The position numbers were made by a program, and so were the translations under genes. The notes beneath the pieces are model-generated. The model was not told where the DNA came from. It did not search any database and saw only the letters and a list, made by a program, of their open reading frames with translations. From Octopus vulgaris (taxonomy: Eukaryota), in NCBI GenBank assembly GCA_951406725.2, contig OX597815.1, positions 130,572,001 through 130,636,000 of the forward strand: 64,000 bases of DNA, in the 5' to 3' direction. Shown one piece after another: positions 1,187 to 41,144 of the stretch (the stretch's first letter is position 1; each line of letters begins with the position of its first letter).

Positions 1187-4020
1187 TCATCATCATCATC
1201 ATCATCATCGTTTAACATCCGTTTTCCATGCTAGCATGGGTTGGATGGTTCGACTGAGGTCTGGGAAGCCAGGAGGTTGCACCAGGCTTCAGTCTGATCT
1301 GGTGGAGTTTCTACAGCTGGATGCCCTTCCTAATGCCAACCACTCCGTGAGTGTAGTAGGTGCTTTTTACATTCCACCTGCACAGGGGCCAGAGGAGGCT
1401 GGCAAAGGCCATGATCGATTGGTGCTTTTATGTGCCATCGGCACGGAAGCCAGTCAAGGCGATGCTGGCATCAGCCACGTTCGGATGTTGGTATTTACGT
1501 GCCCCCGGCACGGGTATCACAACTACAATTTCCATTTGATTTTTATTTTGATGTTGATGTACTTGACTCAATAGGTCGCCTCAAGCACAGCAGGTTGCTC
1601 TACGATCCAAGGTAAGTACAGCAGGTCATCCTACGATCCAAGGTACTTTTGAACGGACTGAGGCTGGTTATGTGAAACTGGTGTAGGATAGTATTTGTCG
1701 GGTCTTCGCAGTCACAGCATATCTCCAGAGGTCTTTTGTCATTGACTCTGTGAGGCCCAATGTTCGAAGGTCATGCTTGACCACCTCATCCAATGTCTTT
1801 CTGGGTCTACCTCTACCCCGGATTCCTTCAACTGTTTGGGAGTGGCACTTCTTCACACATCTCTCCTCATCCATCTGTAGTACATGACCATACCAGCACA
1901 AACATCTTTCTTGCATGCCACATCCGATGCTTCTTATGTCCAACATTTCTCTCAAGGCGCTCACACTCTGTCATATGTGCACACTGACATTACACATCCA
2001 GCGGATCATGCTAGCTTCATTTCTTTCGAGCCTATGCATGTCCTCCACAGTCATGGTCCATGTTTTACTGCTTTGAAACAAGGCAGTTTGCACACATGCA
2101 TTGTACAATCTACTTTTCACTCTGAGCGAGAGGCTCTTTGTCACCAGTAGGAGTAGAAGCTTTCTAAACTTATTCTTATTCTAGTGGTAACACATTCTGA
2201 GCATCCACACCCCACTACTAACTTGGTCACCTAGGTAGCAGAGGCTATCAACTACTAGTTTCTCCCCATGGAGTGTGAGGGAATCTGTTTTCTGAGCATC
2301 TGTAGTATTTATTGCCCCTGTGCATCTGCCGCACACGAAAGCTGTCTTCTTGGTTAATTTTCCTTTGATGGTGCTGCACCTCTTATGTGTCCATAGCTTA
2401 CACTGGGTACATCTTATGGAGTTTCTACCTACACCTTTTCTGCAGATCAAGTAGGGCCACCTACCTGGGGAGGGGTGATGAGTTCACCTTCCTACTTACT
2501 AGAACTTTGGTCTTTGCTACATTGACTCTAAGGCCTTTTGTTTCTAAACCTTGCTTCCATACCCGGAATTACTTTTCTCATTCTGGTAGTGATTCTGCTA
2601 TGAGGGCCAGGTCATCAGCATAGAGGAGCTCCCAGGGGCAACCAGTCTTGAATTCTTCTGTTATTGCCTGGAGGACTATGATGAATAAAAGGGGACTGAG
2701 GACTGAACTTTGGTGGACCCCTACTTCTACCTGGAATTCTTCACTGTACTCATTGCCAATCCTAACCTTACTACTGGCCTCTCTGTATAGGGCTTGTACA
2801 GCCCTTATTAACCGTTCATCAATCTCCAGTTTCCGCATCGCCCACCAGATAAGGGATCGGGGGACCCTGTCAAAAGCTTTCTCCAAGTCCACATTTCTCT
2901 CCTGTGATATCACAATTTTCTCTCACACAGTATCTTGCAATCTGAAATACCTCAGTTCTTTGGTCCTTACATCGCTGGACATTGGCAAACTTCTTCTTTT
3001 CCGCTTCACCCTTGGCTATGTATACCTGCTGCCCAGCCTCCCTTTTGGCTACCTGGTACAGTTTCCTGCTACCTTCCAGGCCTGTTTCTTTGTCTAATGG
3101 CTTTGTCCACCATCATGTAACTCTAGGTCTGGAAGGGACATTGCACCATCCGCAGACTTGGTCTGTGGCACTCAGCAAGCTGCTTATAGGAATTTCCAGG
3201 TACCTTCTATGTCCAGTGCCTGTAGCTCCTCCTCCCTCTCATCAAATTTCTTGATGAGGATGTCCCTAAATCTCTGACCATGTGAAGGATCCTTTAGCTT
3301 CCAAATCCTTCTTTTTTGGATTGGTCTGTTTCTTGGTATCCTTCTGGCCTCGAGCCTAAAGTCACTAATGACTAGCCTATGCTGGGGGTACATTCTTCCC
3401 CCAAGAGGGTCTTTGTAATTAAGAGCAACCCTGCGTCCCGCTGTCTGGTAAGGATGAAATCAATCTGGCTAGCAGTGTCCCCCTGATTGATAGGTTATCA
3501 GATGATTGTCTGGCTTCCTGTTACAGATTAAAAGGTTACATGTATCACAGAACTCCAGTAGCCTAGTTCCATCATTGTTCTGGGTGCCAATACCATGGAC
3601 CCTGTGTATCCCAGTGAACATGCCAGATTCCCGCCCAACATGCCCATTAAAATCTCCAGCAACAAAGATGAGGTCTTTACCACTTGTCTTTGAGGTAGCC
3701 TGTAGAAGGGTATCAAAAAAGTGGTCCTTCTGATCATTTGGTAGCCCTGCATGTGGGGGTGTATGCAGAGATAATTGTAGCTGTGCTGTTCTGCAGGACT
3801 AGCCTGAGCTTAAGCACTCTATCGTATACCCTAACAACCTCTATGACTTTATCCACCCATTTCTCCACAAGGAGTATGCCAACACCCCCTACACCATCCA
3901 TGTTACCTTGCCAGAAAACTTTATTCCTATGCGCCTTGCTTGTAAGGACCTTAGTTGAAGCTCCTCTCCATCTTACCTCTTGCATGCAGCATACATCAAC
4001 CCATCTCCTTTCAAGCATCT
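1187..4020 (-). mobile_element. Degraded RTE-clade LINE (APE endonuclease, internally deleted RT, 3' UTR, (GAT)n tail)
   Basis: Fragment ORFs include CCMQEVRWRG (APE), LEKAFDRVPRS...ELLYADDL (RT) and GRGRPRKT. Frameshifts and stops are present. Homologous to 25489-27485. Confidence 0.9.
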
Positions 4021-4636
4021 GTGTATATATATTTACTACTCCTAATATCTTGACAATATTTATGACCACACCTAGCCATGAGCTGTCAGCTCACTCTTGC
4101 CCTTCATTCCAAACAGACACAGTCCTCTAGTCTTAGATTTAGTAGTTGATTAAATGACAAATAAATTAGAAATGAACCACAATCCTTTACAAGCTATGAC
4201 CCCAGTAAGCTTTATGCTTTTCTTGGAAGTGTAGTCTATTCTTAGCTACAATAGTGACAACATAGATTTCTTCCATCTTCTTGCCCTGTTAAAGTATTTG
4301 AGAAAAATTATATTAATGTGTCTAACTGATTAAAATTCTATTTATTTGTGCAACTGATGATAGCCCTGCATTTAAATTGATGTAATGATTGCTTGAAATG
4401 GTCGTGCTGCATCACTTCTTGATATCCTGTTGCTTATTTTGATATATATATATGTATTTATGAGCATGTCTGAGTCCATTTCAGTGTGCATTTGTGTGTG
4501 TGTGTGTGTGCATGCGTGCATGTGTATGTGCATACATGTTATCCATCAACATCTTCATAAACTGACATTGCATCAATGCTTAAAGATGCCAGCAGTTAAT
4601 AGATAAAAAAGAAAGATCAGAAATGTTGTCACTCAC

Positions 4637-4766
4637 CTAAAACACTTAAATATTGCTTGATATTTCGAAGGAATTGTGAAGTAAACATTGAAAGCTTCAC
4701 ATTCTCAGGTAAAGAAAACTGGTGACGTAGTCCCCCACAGGACAATGCACTGGCAGCTCTTGTGTA
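4637..4766 (-). CDS. FOXRED1: FOXRED1-like, exon 2
   Basis: Splice sites are ttttag|TAC...TTAG|gtgagt. The exon encodes YTRAASALSCGGLRHQFSLPENVKLSMFTSQFLRNIKQYLSVL and continues in phase 0 from exon 1. It matches the FOXRED1 [22 protein letters not shown] motif. Confidence 0.9.
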
Positions 4767-5548
4767 CTAAAAGTAAAAGAAAACATACAAATTACAGTCT
4801 TTATAGAGATTACAGGAAATTTTGTCATGGACATTTTTGCCAGAGAAAAATGAAACATGAGAAATTTCATTTTAGAAAAACTCACTGTAAAACAAAATAT
4901 ATCTGCAGCTAAAAGTATATTATTTGTGAAGCATTGTATGGGATTCTGATGCGTTTTAAATAACCTCACCGCATTATTTTAATGTTTGTTCTTGAAGAAT
5001 GAGTAACCTATTTAATGCTTTATAAAACCTTTTATCATCATTTTTTAATGTTAAAATGCTGATATAACAGGTTTAATCATTGCCCATGTGGCGAATATAC
5101 CTGATGGAAAATTTTCTTACAGCAAAAATGTTTACAGCAAATTTCCTGGACACACTTTATAGAAAACCCAGAAAGCAAGGAGGCAGTTAGAAAAGTAGTC
5201 AGTAACAGGTGGGTCCCTGGGATGTTCTCAGAGGGCTTCAGACCTTTTCTATTTGTGGGCCATTAAGCAGTTGGCATACTTTTAGGTCATCTTCAATGTC
5301 GTTTAATATTTGCTTATACAGGTATAGGCATGTCTGGGTGGTTAAGAGGTTTATTTCTCAACCAAGTGGTTTCGGGTTCAGTCTCACTGAATGACACCTT
5401 GGACAAGTGTTTTCTACTATAGCTTAAGGTTTGTGAGTGGAGATTTGGAAGATGAAAACTGAAAAACTTGTTGGAGCCTGTCAAACTGTTCAACCCATGT
5501 CAGCATGGAAATATGGATATTAAATGATGATGATTTTATATATATACA

Positions 5549-5591
<43 letters not shown>

Positions 5592-5795
5592 ATACCATAA
5601 TGATATCAGTAGGGCAGCTGATGATGGAGAACACCTAGCATCATAACAGCATAATTTTGAAATATCTATAAAACTGTCAAAAGCTTGTTTATTTTTATGG
5701 TTTTTGATTTATTATTAGTGTTGCTTAATATGCTTTGCTAAAATTACTGTTACTTTTCAGATATTATTAGAAAAAGATAATTAAAATTCATTAAA

Positions 5796-6896
5796 ATGAC
5801 AGATCTATCGGACTTTCAAAGAGGTCAAATTGTTGGTGCTCGTATGGCAGGCACTAGTGTAATGAAAACAGCTGAAATGTTTGGTGTATCAAGTGTATCA
5901 AGAAGTACTGTCTTGAAAGTAATGACAGCCTTTGAGAAAGAGGAGAAAACCTTCTCGGCGAAACAAAACTCCAGAAGAAAACCAAAACTTTCAGGTAGGG
6001 ACTGTCAGACTCTTATGCGAATTGTTAGAAAGGATCACAAAAGTACAACTCCCAAAATTACTGCAGAGCTTAATGACAACCTCAAGAACCCAGTTTCCAC
6101 AAAAACTGTCTGCTGGGAGCTGAACAAAGTCGAATTTCACAGGGTGGGGTGGGGCTGCTATCTGAAAACCACTACTTTCAAAAACAAATGTTGCAAAGCA
6201 TTTAGAGTGGAGTAAAAACCTACAGAATTGGTCCTTAGAGCAGTGGAAGAATGTTATTTTCTCAGACAAGTCATCCTTTAACTTATTTCCAACCATCAGC
6301 CAAGTATACGTGTGGAGACAGCCAAAAGAAGCATCTGACCCAGACTGCCTTCTTTCAACTATTAAACATAGAAGAGGATCTGTGATGATCTGCGGTGCTA
6401 TATCTTGGAAATCTGCCAGCCCAATGGTTTCCCTTCATGGCAGAATTAATAGTCAAGACTATTTAAGCATTTTATCTATCAAATTCATCCTATGGTTGTG
6501 GAACTGTTCCCAGAGGGAAACACAATCTTTCAGGATGATAATACACCAATTCACACAGCTAAAGTTGTTAGTGAATGGCACGAGGAACATTTTAGTGAAG
6601 TTGAACATCTTATCTGGCCACCACAGTCCCCAGATCTCAATATTATTGAACATTTATGGTGCATTTTAGAAAAACAAGTAAGGAGTCAATATCCTCCACC
6701 ATCATCACTATGAGGACTGGAGACTGTTTCAGCTGAAGGATGGACAAAAATTCCTTTGGAAACAATTCAAACTTTGTATGAGTTCATACCCCATAGAATT
6801 TAAGCTGTAATTACTGCTAAAGGTGGTCCTACCCCATATTAAAATAAATTTGTTTGAAATTTTAAGTTGTTTCCATTATTTTGTCCAACCCCTGTA
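5796..6896 (+). mobile_element. Degenerate Tc1-family transposon with DD36E spacing; right TIR ends ...TCCAACCCCTG-TA
   Basis: Motifs: LSDFQRGQIVGARMAG (HTH), FSDKS, FQDDNTPIH, WPPQSPDLNIIEHLW. Stops and frameshifts are present, and the left TIR was not seen. Confidence 0.88.
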
Positions 6897-21629: not shown

Positions 21630-22537
21630 TTCTATATTTTGGGGATGAGGAATTATGTACATTATTTACAATGGACGGATAGGTGTCCTCATGTGTTTGT
21701 TGTTACCATAATGTTTCGGCTGATGTACTCTCCAGCCTTCATCAGGTGTTCTGGTAGAATTTCAAACCCAAGCCTTTATTTGACTAATGGGGTACACTGT
21801 TCTCACTCCTAAGGTATGTTACTGATGTTATTTTTCAAGTCCCTGCCTGGGATTGAACTTAGAATCCGAGGGTTAGTAGCTTGTGCTCTTATCCACTACA
21901 CTATATGCCTATGGGCTACTAACCCTTACATTCTAATTTCAGTCCCAGGCAGGGACTTGAAAAATAACATCGGAGTGGCTGTGTGGTAAGTAGCTTGCTA
22001 ACCAACCACATGGTTCCGGATTCAGTCCCACTGCGTGGCATCTTGGGCAAGTGTCTTCTGCTATAGCCCCGGGCCGACCAATGCCTTGTGAGTGGATTTG
22101 GTAGACGGAAACTGAAAGAAGCCTGTCGTATATATGTATGTATATATATGTATGTGTTTGTGTGTCTGTGTTTGTCCCCCTAGCATTGCTTGACAACTGA
22201 TGCTGGTGTGTTTACATCTCCGTCACTTAGCGGTTGGGCAAAAGAGACCGATAGAATAAGTACTGGGCTTACAAAGAATAAGTCCCGGGGTCGATTTGCT
22301 TGACTAGAGGCGGTGCTCCAGCATGGCCGCAGTCAAATGACTGAAACAAGTAAAAGAGTAAAAGAGAGAGAGAGTAACATACCTAAGGAATGAGAACAGT
22401 GTATTCCATTAGTCAAATAAAGGCTTGGGTTTGAAATTCCACCAGAACACCTGATGAAGACTGCAGAGTACATCAGCTGATATGTGATAGTAACAAACAA
22501 GATGAAGACACCCATCCATCCATTGTAAATAATGTAC
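21630..22537. mobile_element. Second copy of the tRNA-head/hammerhead inverted-duplicate element, interrupted by a SINE (21972-~22372)
   Basis: The arms are homologous to 14427-14848. The minus-strand arm keeps CTGATGA-A-GGCTGG...TCAGCC-GAAAC (21705-21750). Confidence 0.75.
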
Positions 22538-38660: not shown

Positions 38661-40314
38661 GTGTGTATTGTTTAGTTTGGACCCTTGATCTCTGTGTTAA
38701 AGTTGCTTTACATACTGGTTATAGAACTGATTTTTGTGGATAAGTTTGAAATCATGCTGGCCTAGTACATTTAGCTGTTAATAAATATAATGTCTGCAAG
38801 CAGTGCAGGGCTCTTTATTACAACTGATGATTGATATTATATGTACAAAAAAAAATCAGAGGAAAAAAGACAAGAAAAGAACTACAATGTGAGGATCTAG
38901 CATATGCAAAGTATTAATGAAATGCTCAGAGAAGGAAAGAAAGAGTGGTTATTTTATGTTTTGAGTAAAGCTCCTTGGAAACAGGAGACATAGGAAAGTC
39001 CAAAAGAAAAGGAAGAAGGAGGAAAAAAATTGCCAACAGTGTATGTATATATATATAATATAACATGTCTTGAATGACACAACAATCCAGAGTGTAGTAT
39101 ATTAACTGTTATAATTTAATTGATCAATTCCCAGCAATATCTGAAGAAGCAATTTTTAAATTCCCAAATATATCAGACTATGAATAATTAAATTATAAAA
39201 GTTATTATAGTCCACTCTGCATTGTTGTGCCATTCAAGACATGTTATATTTCACAAACAATACACAATGCTTCCAGTGAACTACAATACTCTCCTATATA
39301 TATATATACATACATGCATGCATACATGTACACTCAGCTGTCAATGGGTAACCCTGCAACAGACTTGCCTTCCTGTCGGGAGGAATGTTGGCATTATTCG
39401 GTAGCTGAAACAATGCAAAGCACATTGTGACCAGCGATGTACAACAACATCTGATAGTGATATATGTATATATATATATAATCATCATCATCATCATCCT
39501 TTAACATCCATCTTCCATGGAATGAAGTGTTTGATTGGATTTGATGGATTTCAAAGCGTCCTTTGTGTTCCAGTGTCTTCTTTGTCTTGGTTTCTATGGC
39601 AGGATGCCCTTCCTTACACCAGCCACTTTATAGAGTGTCCTGGGTACTTTTTCTCCCTGGCAGTAGCATAAGTGAGGTTGTCAAGGAACTTGCAAGACTA
39701 AGATTCTCATAGAGAGGGAGTTGGCTATATGCCAGGTGATAAAAGGGTAATGCATGAAAGAAGCAGCTGGTGGGGCTTACTGGAGCATGTTGGTTACTGT
39801 AGAGAAGCTTTATGGCTATTTGTATAATAAAAGAGTGGGTAGGAATAATTGGGATGAAACTGGAAAGGGAGGTAAGAATGATCATGATGAGGTGCCAAAG
39901 TGGCCCCTTAAGATACTAAAAAGAGAAGGGAAGTGAATGGAGACAGAATAGAAAGTGTGGATGGGTGGAGGTTGCATGAAAGAGGAATGATTAGAGATAG
40001 GATAAAGACGAAGGAGAAGATCAAATGAATGAAGAACAAGTGTTTGGGAGGTGGTTGATGATAAAGGTATTGTAGGGATTAGATAGCTTGTATACGTACT
40101 GTTATTGCTATGCACATCTATCCATGTTTTTGTTCTGCCCTTGTGTCCAATGTGCACTATCAGTAAATAATATTTACTGAATAAAGGAGGTTAAGCATTC
40201 TGGTTAGCTCAAAGTTGCCTCCCTTGGTATCTGGTACTGAAGAGAACTCAATAGTTTAGGATTTATCCATTAAGTCCAATAGTGGACTTTTTCTGTCTTC
40301 AGCAAGAATTTATT

Positions 40315-40663
40315 ACGGAGATGTACTTGCATAGCAAGTGACTTGATCTGAGATCATGTACTAAAACAAAAACAATTGCAGTGTGGAAGATGTTTGTAAG
40401 CCATTTAAGAAGACACAAAAACCGTTAGATTCACTTCAACATTTAAATTTTTATTTGTGTCAAAATATTTTCATTGCTTTGGAACCGCGACCTTTTCACT
40501 GACAAAACTTCATGCCGCACGATATTTAGTCATTGAGCAGGTCGTGGTTTCAAAGCAGCGAAAATATTTTGACACAAATAAAATTCAAATGTTGAAGTGA
40601 AACTAATGGTTTTTGTGTATTCTTGAATGCCTTACAAACATCTTCCACGCCGCAATTGCAATT
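40315..40663. mobile_element. Inverted-duplicate non-coding retroelement with variant hammerhead-like motifs; 13-bp TSD
   Basis: TSD GCAAGAATTTATT at 40302-40314 and 40664-40676; inverted arms at 40373-40504 and 40529-40658. Confidence 0.72.
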
Positions 40664-41144
40664 GCAAGAATTTATTGTACATGACAAACTGCAGTAACAA
40701 GTCATAAGAGGTTCAACTATCTCTCAAATGTATTTGAATTCATTTTATGTTTGTGTGTAATTTCTATTTATTCTTATTACTAATTTATTTAAGAAAAACA
40801 AAAAACTTTTGTGTCCATATATGATAATGTGAAAGCACTGCCTGGTGGTCAAGGTGTTGCACTCTTGATCGCTAAATCACGACTTTGATTCCCAGACCAG
40901 GTGGCACATTATGATCTTGAGTAAAATACTCCAATTCATGTTGCTCTGCAATCATTTCAACATCTCAATTGTTGCACACTAGTGCACCTGTGCAGGTGAT
41001 GTTGATTTGCTGGAGGGAATGAACTTATAAACAAATTATCTGTATGGTTGTTGGGCAAAGAAATCATGCAATCCTCATCCATCGTCTAAAGATGGCAGAA
41101 TCCAAAATAATAATTCAGTGGCAACTGCATAACTATATTTACAG

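What the first reader, a model, noticed from the sequence alone, without database searches (positions are those of the whole stretch)
40315..40663. Independent family with an apparent G3-C8 swapped hammerhead core
Seen: a 349-bp insertion with a 13-bp TSD (GCAAGAATTTATT), ~130-bp inverted arms and a ~58-bp extension on one side only. The minus arm (40504-40458) reads TGTCA-GTGAAAA-G-GTCGC-GGTTCCAAA-GCAAT-GAAA-ATAT-TT-TGACA. The plus arm (40529-40573) reads GTCA-TTGAGCA-G-GTCGT-GGTTTCAAA-GCAGC-GAAA-ATAT-TT-TGAC. Stem I (TGTCA/TGACA), GAAA, a palindromic ATAT loop and a UH site are in hammerhead order. Established: hammerhead positions 3 and 8 form a tertiary Watson-Crick pair that tolerates compensatory swaps. 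Inference: combining the two arms gives GUGARCA (G3-C8) with stem II GUCGC/GCGAC eroded by CpG decay. Such a core would be missed by CUGANGA searches.
Basis: partly seen in the sequence, partly recalled or inferred. Interest (0 to 1): 0.75.

Follow-up and report, generated by a model that had tools for sequence, protein, structure and literature searches.

The report
Swapped-core hammerhead in Penelope retroelement ends
This is a decayed back-to-back pair of end repeats of a Penelope-type jumping gene whose thousands of copies carry a hammerhead RNA motif with two paired core letters swapped (G3-C8); related elements show all four possible pairings at that spot, so the motif is likely kept as a self-cutting RNA, though cutting is untested.

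Summary
In detail: a 349-bp insertion, a 13-bp target duplication, 143-bp inverted arms and a 58-bp one-sided tail. It is not an orphan family. It is two head-to-head pseudo-LTR ends of a Penelope-like element (PLE); I found its full-length RT + GIY-YIG parent in the same genome (L104). The swap is real covariation. The sister lineage in this genome has the same stem I and N7 but C3-G8. Eight of 8 hammerheads found just 3' of related PLE ORFs, with a search blind to positions 3 and 8, pair there (C-G, U-A, A-U). Core and stems are unchanged across three subfamilies while loop and flanks change. This copy is likely dead, since both arms have a broken 3:8 pair. Copies begin about 20 nt upstream of the core and almost never at the predicted cut, so templates were likely uncleaved RNA. 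I found natural U3-A8 in print, but G3-C8 only as an engineered mutant; two key papers were not readable. This scan already flagged the same family elsewhere in this genome. Verdict: new variant of a known kind; cleavage untested.

The parts
40302..40314 (+). Left copy of 13-bp target-site duplication
   Evidence: D5; 18 of 32 non-TA-flanked family loci have duplications of 7 nt or more, mostly 11-13
40313..40519 (-). Long arm: whole pseudo-LTR unit (positions 5-209 of the 209-nt consensus), ending at the distal fixed 3' end; old subfamily, 6.8% diverged from its consensus
40315..40372 (-). 58-nt PLE 'tail' between the two fixed 3' ends; it lies inside the start of the parent ORF
   Evidence: tail as defined in PMC11167929
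40315..40404 (-). First 30 codons of the parent RT-endonuclease ORF (ATG at 40404-40402)
   Evidence: frame continues into the ORF in L104, L204, L214, L215
40458..40504 (-). Decayed minimal type I hammerhead: G3 at 40499, position 8 mutated to A at 40494, stem II damaged at two CpGs; predicted cut between 40463 and 40462
40512..40519 (.). Head-to-head junction of the two arms at the fixed 5' boundary of the unit
40512..40658 (+). Short arm: unit positions 4-149, ending at the proximal fixed 3' end; 10.2% diverged
40529..40573 (+). Decayed hammerhead: position 3 mutated to U at 40533, C8 at 40538; predicted cut between 40569 and 40570
40659..40663 (+). 5-nt junction filler (local duplication), not family sequence
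40664..40676 (+). Right copy of 13-bp target-site duplication

Best explanation
The insertion is a head-to-head pair of pseudo-LTR ends of a Penelope-like retroelement whose family carries a minimal type I hammerhead with the 3:8 core pair swapped to G3-C8, likely kept by selection as a weak, dimer- or protein-dependent self-cleaving RNA, while this copy is likely inactive. Shown: parent element with RT + GIY-YIG ORF; unit = 5'UTR + hammerhead + first 30 codons; two fixed 3' ends; fixed 5' boundary; variable target duplications; TA-rich targets; covariation at 3:8. Inferred: a transcript starts about 20 nt upstream of the core, probably capped (extra G). The element's protein nicks both target strands and primes reverse transcription internally at the two sites, one per strand. 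Both cDNAs run to the RNA 5' end and are joined head to head, which gives one long and one short arm. The template was not cut by the hammerhead, so cleavage, if it happens, serves another step (RNA processing, circularisation or self-limitation).
For: Parent: L104 is pLTR-ORF-pLTR, and the unit runs straight into the ORF; GIY-YIG PF01541 above cut-off; 318 homologous proteins at E<=0.001. Architecture: of 46 inverted pairs in 58 loci, 42 are exactly one long + one short end, with no long+long or short+short pair (30 of the 58 were selected by likeness to this copy). PAc protein cuts and extends both strands and starts at two internal sites that bound the tail (PMC11167929). Orthology of the motif: the sister family (53% aa identity, 100/99 support) has C3-G8 at the same place. 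An older sister subfamily has the same stem I, A7 and A9 with C3-G8 in about 79 of 100 listed matches. In 46 related metagenomic loci a descriptor blind to 3/8 gave 11 hits: the 8 that lie just 3' of the ORF on the sense strand all pair (C-G 4, U-A 3, A-U 1), and the 3 elsewhere do not (shuffles give 2.5 per strand, 6 of 25 paired); permutation p about 2e-4 for 10 families. Structure covariation score 0.71 against 0.21 shuffled and at most 0.16 slid. Across three subfamily consensuses, 0 of 39 constrained positions change against 17 of 76 other non-coding positions (p 6e-4; 10 of 69, p 0.013, without the columns used to define subfamilies). The engineered C3G/G8C double mutant of a PLE hammerhead partly restores cleavage. 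The predicted dimer fold uses the palindromic stem III (-32.0 against 2 x -14.5 kcal/mol).
Against: No cleavage data. At most 2 of 68 non-clonal arms listed begin at the predicted cut, and one of them is explained by microhomology (counted by eye). The swap needs two transversions, so the lineage passed through a mispaired core or changed both at once, which suggests selection on cleavage can lapse; the young sister family also tolerates C9 for A9. In the predicted dimer the 10-nt palindrome can also pair A13/A14 with the cleavage-site Us, which would compete with the active core. The families compared are related, so the permutation p-value overstates independence. The A3-U8 case (L139) has a weak stem I. 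No fully intact ORF was seen in this family. The 5' boundary also looks like a 3' splice site, so a start site there is inferred only. PLE minimal hammerheads cleave poorly in vitro even with the usual core (PMC4209133).
Confidence: 0.72

Rival explanations
1. Same element and homologous motif, but the G3-C8 hammerhead no longer cleaves; it is kept as a folded 5'UTR or promoter/protein-binding structure.
For: Templates are uncleaved. Hammerhead mutants do not affect PAc insertion in vitro. The motif lies 20-65 nt downstream of the inferred start, where internal promoter elements lie in Penelope (PMC2377424, passages), which could conserve the sequence at DNA level. The swap needs a mispaired intermediate.
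Against: Promoter or plain stem constraints would not keep a Watson-Crick 3:8 pair in four different forms across 10 families; that this pair belongs to the active fold is recalled. Loop II, in the same stretch, changes freely.
Confidence: 0.2
2. The palindromic 349-bp unit is a self-propagating non-autonomous element (SINE- or retrozyme-like) that cycles through its own RNA, possibly a circle made by hammerhead cleavage.
For: Thousands of short copies; a 30-copy 166-bp tandem array of the same unit exists.
Against: Arm lengths and junctions differ from copy to copy. Solo units lack the ORF sequence beyond the tail that PAc protein needs. A transcript through a palindrome folds as one hairpin of about -180 kcal/mol. 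The array unit includes TA-rich filler of target type. Groups of identical palindromes were carried inside other repeats.
Confidence: 0.06
3. A DNA-transposon MITE with long terminal inverted repeats and a chance hammerhead look-alike.
For: Long inverted arms and short length.
Against: Variable duplication length, unequal arms, solo arms, continuity with an RT + GIY-YIG ORF, and orthologous hammerheads.
Confidence: 0.02

Closest known systems
Minimal type I hammerheads in pLTRs of metazoan PLEs (Cervera and de la Pena 2014, PMC4209133; read parts 1-2 of 4; 2 supplementary files searched, file 1 not searchable)
   Same: Located in the pLTR; extra nucleotide between 9 and 10.1; G10.1-C11.1; palindromic stem III; 4-5 bp stem I; mostly truncated solo copies; pairs on opposite strands 100-700 bp apart
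   Different: The natural 3:8 variant reported there is U3-A8; here G3-C8 is fixed in a whole family, and A3-U8 appears in one relative
Poseidon_Ac (PAc) of the green anole (Frangieh et al. 2024, PMC11167929; read parts 1-2 of 4)
   Same: Tail between two internal RT start sites inside the ORF start; AT-rich targets; uncleaved RNA as template; G3-C8 partly active as an engineered double mutant
   Different: PAc is Penelope/Poseidon clade with a natural C3-G8 core overlapping the start codon. Here the hammerhead ends about 50 nt before the ATG, the protein has a CX3CxxC linker before the endonuclease, and the swap is natural
Neptune/Nematis clades of EN+ PLEs (Craig et al. 2021, PMC8557442; introduction and passages)
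   Same: RT followed by a C-terminal GIY-YIG, a cysteine-rich linker, TA-microsatellite bias (26 of 58 loci), inverted 5'-truncated copy and one-sided tail
   Different: Clade not fixed here because no named reference proteins were in the tree
Natural hammerhead core variants (Perreault et al. 2011, PMC3088659; section 8 and passages)
   Same: 3:8 covaries in nature
   Different: Only U3-A8 is named there
Animal non-LTR retrozymes (bioRxiv 10.64898/2026.07.22.740005; part 1 of 5)
   Same: PLE-derived non-coding repeats with type I hammerheads; one tandem array of this unit exists
   Different: Copies here are mostly solo or inverted pLTR ends of a coding PLE, not tandem monomers cut at the ribozyme

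Membership tests
EN+ Penelope-like element | Single ORF with RT and C-terminal GIY-YIG endonuclease | tested here: met
   About 1,065-codon ORF in L104 (broken in that copy); YVDD RT motif; PF01541 above cut-off. Pfam RT models did not hit.
EN+ Penelope-like element | pLTRs, direct or inverted, with a one-sided tail | tested here: met
EN+ Penelope-like element | Variable-length target duplication and AT-rich target | tested here: met
   18 of 32 non-TA loci with 7 nt or more; 26 of 58 TA-flanked
Neptune or Nematis clade | Zn-finger-like linker between RT and EN | tested here: met
   CX3CxxC before the GIY-YIG domain; definition
Neptune or Nematis clade | RT phylogeny with named references | not tested
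   No named reference sequences were fetched
Minimal type I hammerhead | Core U4 G5 A6 A9, G12 A13 A14, A15.1-U16.1, H17 | tested here: met
   90-100 of 100 arms per position; U17
Minimal type I hammerhead | C3-G8 letters (CUGANGA) | tested here: not met
   G3 96/100, C8 98/100; 0 of 100 C3-G8. Filed as a variant, not as a canonical member.
Minimal type I hammerhead | Watson-Crick 3:8 pair | tested here: met
   G-C in the family; C-G, U-A, A-U in relatives. Not met in the two arms of this copy.
Minimal type I hammerhead | Stems I and II, palindromic stem III | tested here: met
   5-7 bp stem I, 5 bp stem II, 6-nt palindrome; covarying
Minimal type I hammerhead | Site-specific self-cleavage | not testable with these tools
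   No raw RNA reads were available; contigs cannot show ends
Non-LTR retrozyme | Tandem non-coding monomers, each with a hammerhead, and circular RNA | tested here: not met
   This copy is an inverted pair; only one tandem array of the family was seen; circles untested
MITE / DNA transposon | Fixed-length duplication and symmetric terminal repeats | tested here: not met

The most novel reading that the evidence does not exclude
A PLE lineage fixed a naturally swapped G3-C8 hammerhead and kept it through at least three subfamilies and thousands of insertions, and its clade uses all four Watson-Crick pairs at 3:8, including A3-U8. PLE hammerheads are therefore selected for the catalytic fold even though the RNA copied into the genome is uncut, so cleavage controls another step of the cycle. 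The near-identical C3-G8 and G3-C8 families in one genome are a ready natural pair to test this, and CUGANGA-based censuses miss whole ribozyme families.
Probability: 0.5. Interest if true: 0.62.

Novelty: new variant of a known kind. Interest (0 to 1): 0.45.

Why it matters
What PLE hammerheads do is open: they cleave poorly in vitro, are dispensable for insertion in vitro, and have been suggested to be passengers. Natural covariation of the 3:8 tertiary pair through all four combinations argues that the active fold is under selection. It supplies natural confirmation of a pair known mainly from engineered swaps, and it shows that standard descriptors miss a family with about 6,000 core copies in one genome. 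The long-plus-short architecture of the inverted pairs is also a genomic footprint that fits priming from both nicked strands at two internal sites. The element class and the ribozyme class are both known, and this copy is a likely dead remnant.

Tried and rejected
Rfam at gathering threshold: no hit in the window. Looking for the parent by reading past the tail: none among the 100 of 161 matches listed; it was found through copies that share upstream sequence. An apparent 3.4-kb tandem (L066) was a local duplication without ORF. Viral contigs gave no relatives. No RNA holder on record was listed; contigs of guessed-RNA runs cover the unit and the ORF start but cannot show ends, strand or level, and showed no splice joint into the 5' boundary. 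My first strict scan missed the sister hammerhead because it has C9. A shared flank beyond the tail was first a candidate for ORF continuation; it is one insertion carried in another repeat. The MITE reading was rejected. For the 5' boundary, cis-splicing to a longer exon or trans-splicing was disfavoured because no copy shares sequence beyond 3 nt upstream of it, but it is not excluded. Lunse et al. 2017 and Przybilski and Hammann 2007 were not held, so a report of natural G3-C8 there, or in the unsearchable supplement file of PMC4209133, cannot be excluded. The scan's look-up by sequence returned nothing. My notebook says 36 of 100 for the clonal group; the recount is 32.

Full report
Observation. 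The window holds the element as described: a 13-bp duplication at 40302-40314 and 40664-40676, arms of about 143 nt at 84-90% complementarity, and a 58-nt extension on the left. Rfam finds nothing. The window lies in a 2.8-Gb genome; a protein that NCBI names from Octopus vulgaris matches it at 100%, so the host is an octopus.

Family and consensus. A DNA search gave 3305 candidates. From 60 loci, 100 distinct arms covering the motif give a 209-nt unit with core GUGAACA, an extra G, stem II GUCGC/GCGAC, GAAA, a palindromic stem III, UU and stem I. G3 is in 96 and C8 in 98 of 100. A pattern with N at 3 and 8 has 6024 exact matches (reversed control 0); 95 of the first 100 are G3-C8 and none is C3-G8 (by eye). 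The window copy belongs to the old subfamily (arms 6.8% and 10.2% diverged). Its arms read G3-A8 and U3-C8 with damaged stem II, and a read-through transcript folds as one hairpin of about -180 kcal/mol, so this copy is likely inactive.

The parent. Five of 100 listed copies shared upstream sequence; that junction has 993 matches at up to 1 mismatch. Following them led to an ORF with an RT motif and a GIY-YIG domain, with 1750 candidates and 95-99% identity among the 40 scored. L104 is a full pLTR-ORF-pLTR element with an inverted truncated copy upstream. The unit's last 90 nt are the first 30 codons, and the frame runs on into the ORF. The four near-full-length copies examined (L087, L104, L204, L205) are all broken or truncated. 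A CX3CxxC linker points to the Neptune or Nematis clades, which I did not test with references.

How the insertion was likely made. Arms end at two fixed sites, near unit positions 150 and 209 (53 long, 48 short, 4 other). Of 46 inverted pairs in 58 loci, 42 are one long plus one short and none is long+long or short+short (30 loci were chosen by likeness to this copy, which biases the count). Duplications are variable, and 26 of 58 loci sit in TA tracts. The anole PAc protein cuts and extends both strands and starts reverse transcription at two internal sites that bound the tail (PMC11167929, parts 1-2). I infer that each nick primed at one site and that the two cDNAs were joined at the RNA 5' end. 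That end is sharp: no solo copy extends more than about 3 nt upstream of the ATGCAGC motif. Where AG precedes it, the next letter is G in 21 of 29 loci and 25 of 40 listed matches (by eye), against C in the parent. This fits a capped start with the cap copied as G (cap copying by RTs is recalled), and Penelope has an internal promoter (PMC2377424, passages). The same place also resembles a 3' splice site, and RNA contigs did not decide between the two. At most 2 of 68 non-clonal arms begin at the predicted cut (by eye; 32 clonal rows left out), so templates were likely uncut, as for PAc.

Is it a hammerhead? The closest sister family (53% aa over the aligned ORF, 100/99 support) has a hammerhead at the same place with C3-G8 and compensatory changes in stems I and II; its position 9 is C. 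An older sister subfamily has the same stem I, A7 and A9, and is C3-G8 in about 79 of 100 listed matches, so its 3-9 core differs from ours only at 3 and 8. In 46 related metagenomic loci (of 78 fetched; L126-L171, the first 46 listed), a descriptor blind to positions 3 and 8 gave 11 hits. The 8 just downstream of the ORF on the sense strand all carry the extra G and all pair: C-G in 4, U-A in 3, A-U in 1. The other 3 lie inside ORFs, do not pair and match the chance level. Of 20 loci inspected at the 3' end, 12 showed none, several being cut short. Nine of 10 families have a palindromic stem III. On a 14-row alignment the structure has a covariation score of 0.71 against 0.21 shuffled and at most 0.16 slid; the only unpaired 3:8 rows are the two decayed window arms. 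In the tree G3-C8 is nested among C3-G8 and U3-A8 rows, so it is likely derived (midpoint root only). Three subfamily consensuses (1.3%, 4.8% and 7.3% mean divergence) differ at 0 of 39 constrained positions and 17 of 76 other non-coding positions (p 6e-4; p 0.013 without marker columns). A few older copies with C8 and a sister-like loop II suggest the swap predates these subfamilies (thin evidence).

Against. There are no cleavage data. The swap needs two transversions. The 10-nt palindrome can over-pair in the dimer. Families are not independent. Minimal PLE hammerheads cleave poorly in vitro (PMC4209133), and PAc's cleaves only with protein and is not needed for insertion.

Literature. Natural U3-A8 is described (PMC3088659 section 8; PMC4209133). 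I met G3-C8 only as an engineered variant: partial rescue in PAc and a remark in PMC3884650 (passages). Searches showed no report of a natural G3-C8 or A3-U8 hammerhead. Lunse 2017 and Przybilski and Hammann 2007 were not held, and one supplement file of PMC4209133 could not be searched, so absence from print is not established. This scan noted G3-C8 before, in this genome and in phages. One such note is a 30-copy array that I confirmed to be the same family.

Verdict. A real, likely dead, inverted pLTR pair of a PLE family with a natural G3-C8 hammerhead variant. New variant of a known kind; interest 0.45.

Noticed in passing
window 21700-21830 (-) and about 22380-22480 (+): Inverted pair of ends of another repeat family with a canonical C3-G8 minimal hammerhead (core at 21745, minus), with a different repeat lying between the arms; no BLAST similarity to the finding.
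   Followed up: partly
L139:2809: Candidate natural A3-U8 hammerhead 3' of a PLE ORF, with the extra G and a palindromic stem III but a weak stem I.
   Followed up: partly
L106-L119 (for example L107:2136 and 2272-6198): Young, intact sister PLE family (about 1,310-codon ORFs, 99% identical copies) whose hammerhead has C9 in place of A9; L127 also has C9 with U3-A8.
   Followed up: partly
L120-L125: One damaged palindrome of this family was captured in another repeat and amplified; it makes up 32 of 100 rows.
   Followed up: partly
L002, L003, L005, L011, L012, L036: A second captured copy with shared flanks on both sides, carried in another repeat.
   Followed up: no
L214, L215, L212 and rows: Further minor 3' ends inside the ORF, about 120-145 and 211 nt into the query L104:4400-5100, which may be additional internal RT start sites.
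   Followed up: no
L216:589-5529: 30-copy 166-bp tandem array of the unit with intact G3-C8 cores, which could supply natural dimers.
   Followed up: partly
L104:7535-8480: The 0.95-kb 3' region of the parent is rich in (CATA)n and (CA)n and ends in a motif that looks like a branch point and 3' splice site at the unit's 5' boundary.
   Followed up: partly
L072:3129-4300: A fragment of a different PLE-like ORF next to a copy of this family; no tblastn hit to this ORF.
   Followed up: no
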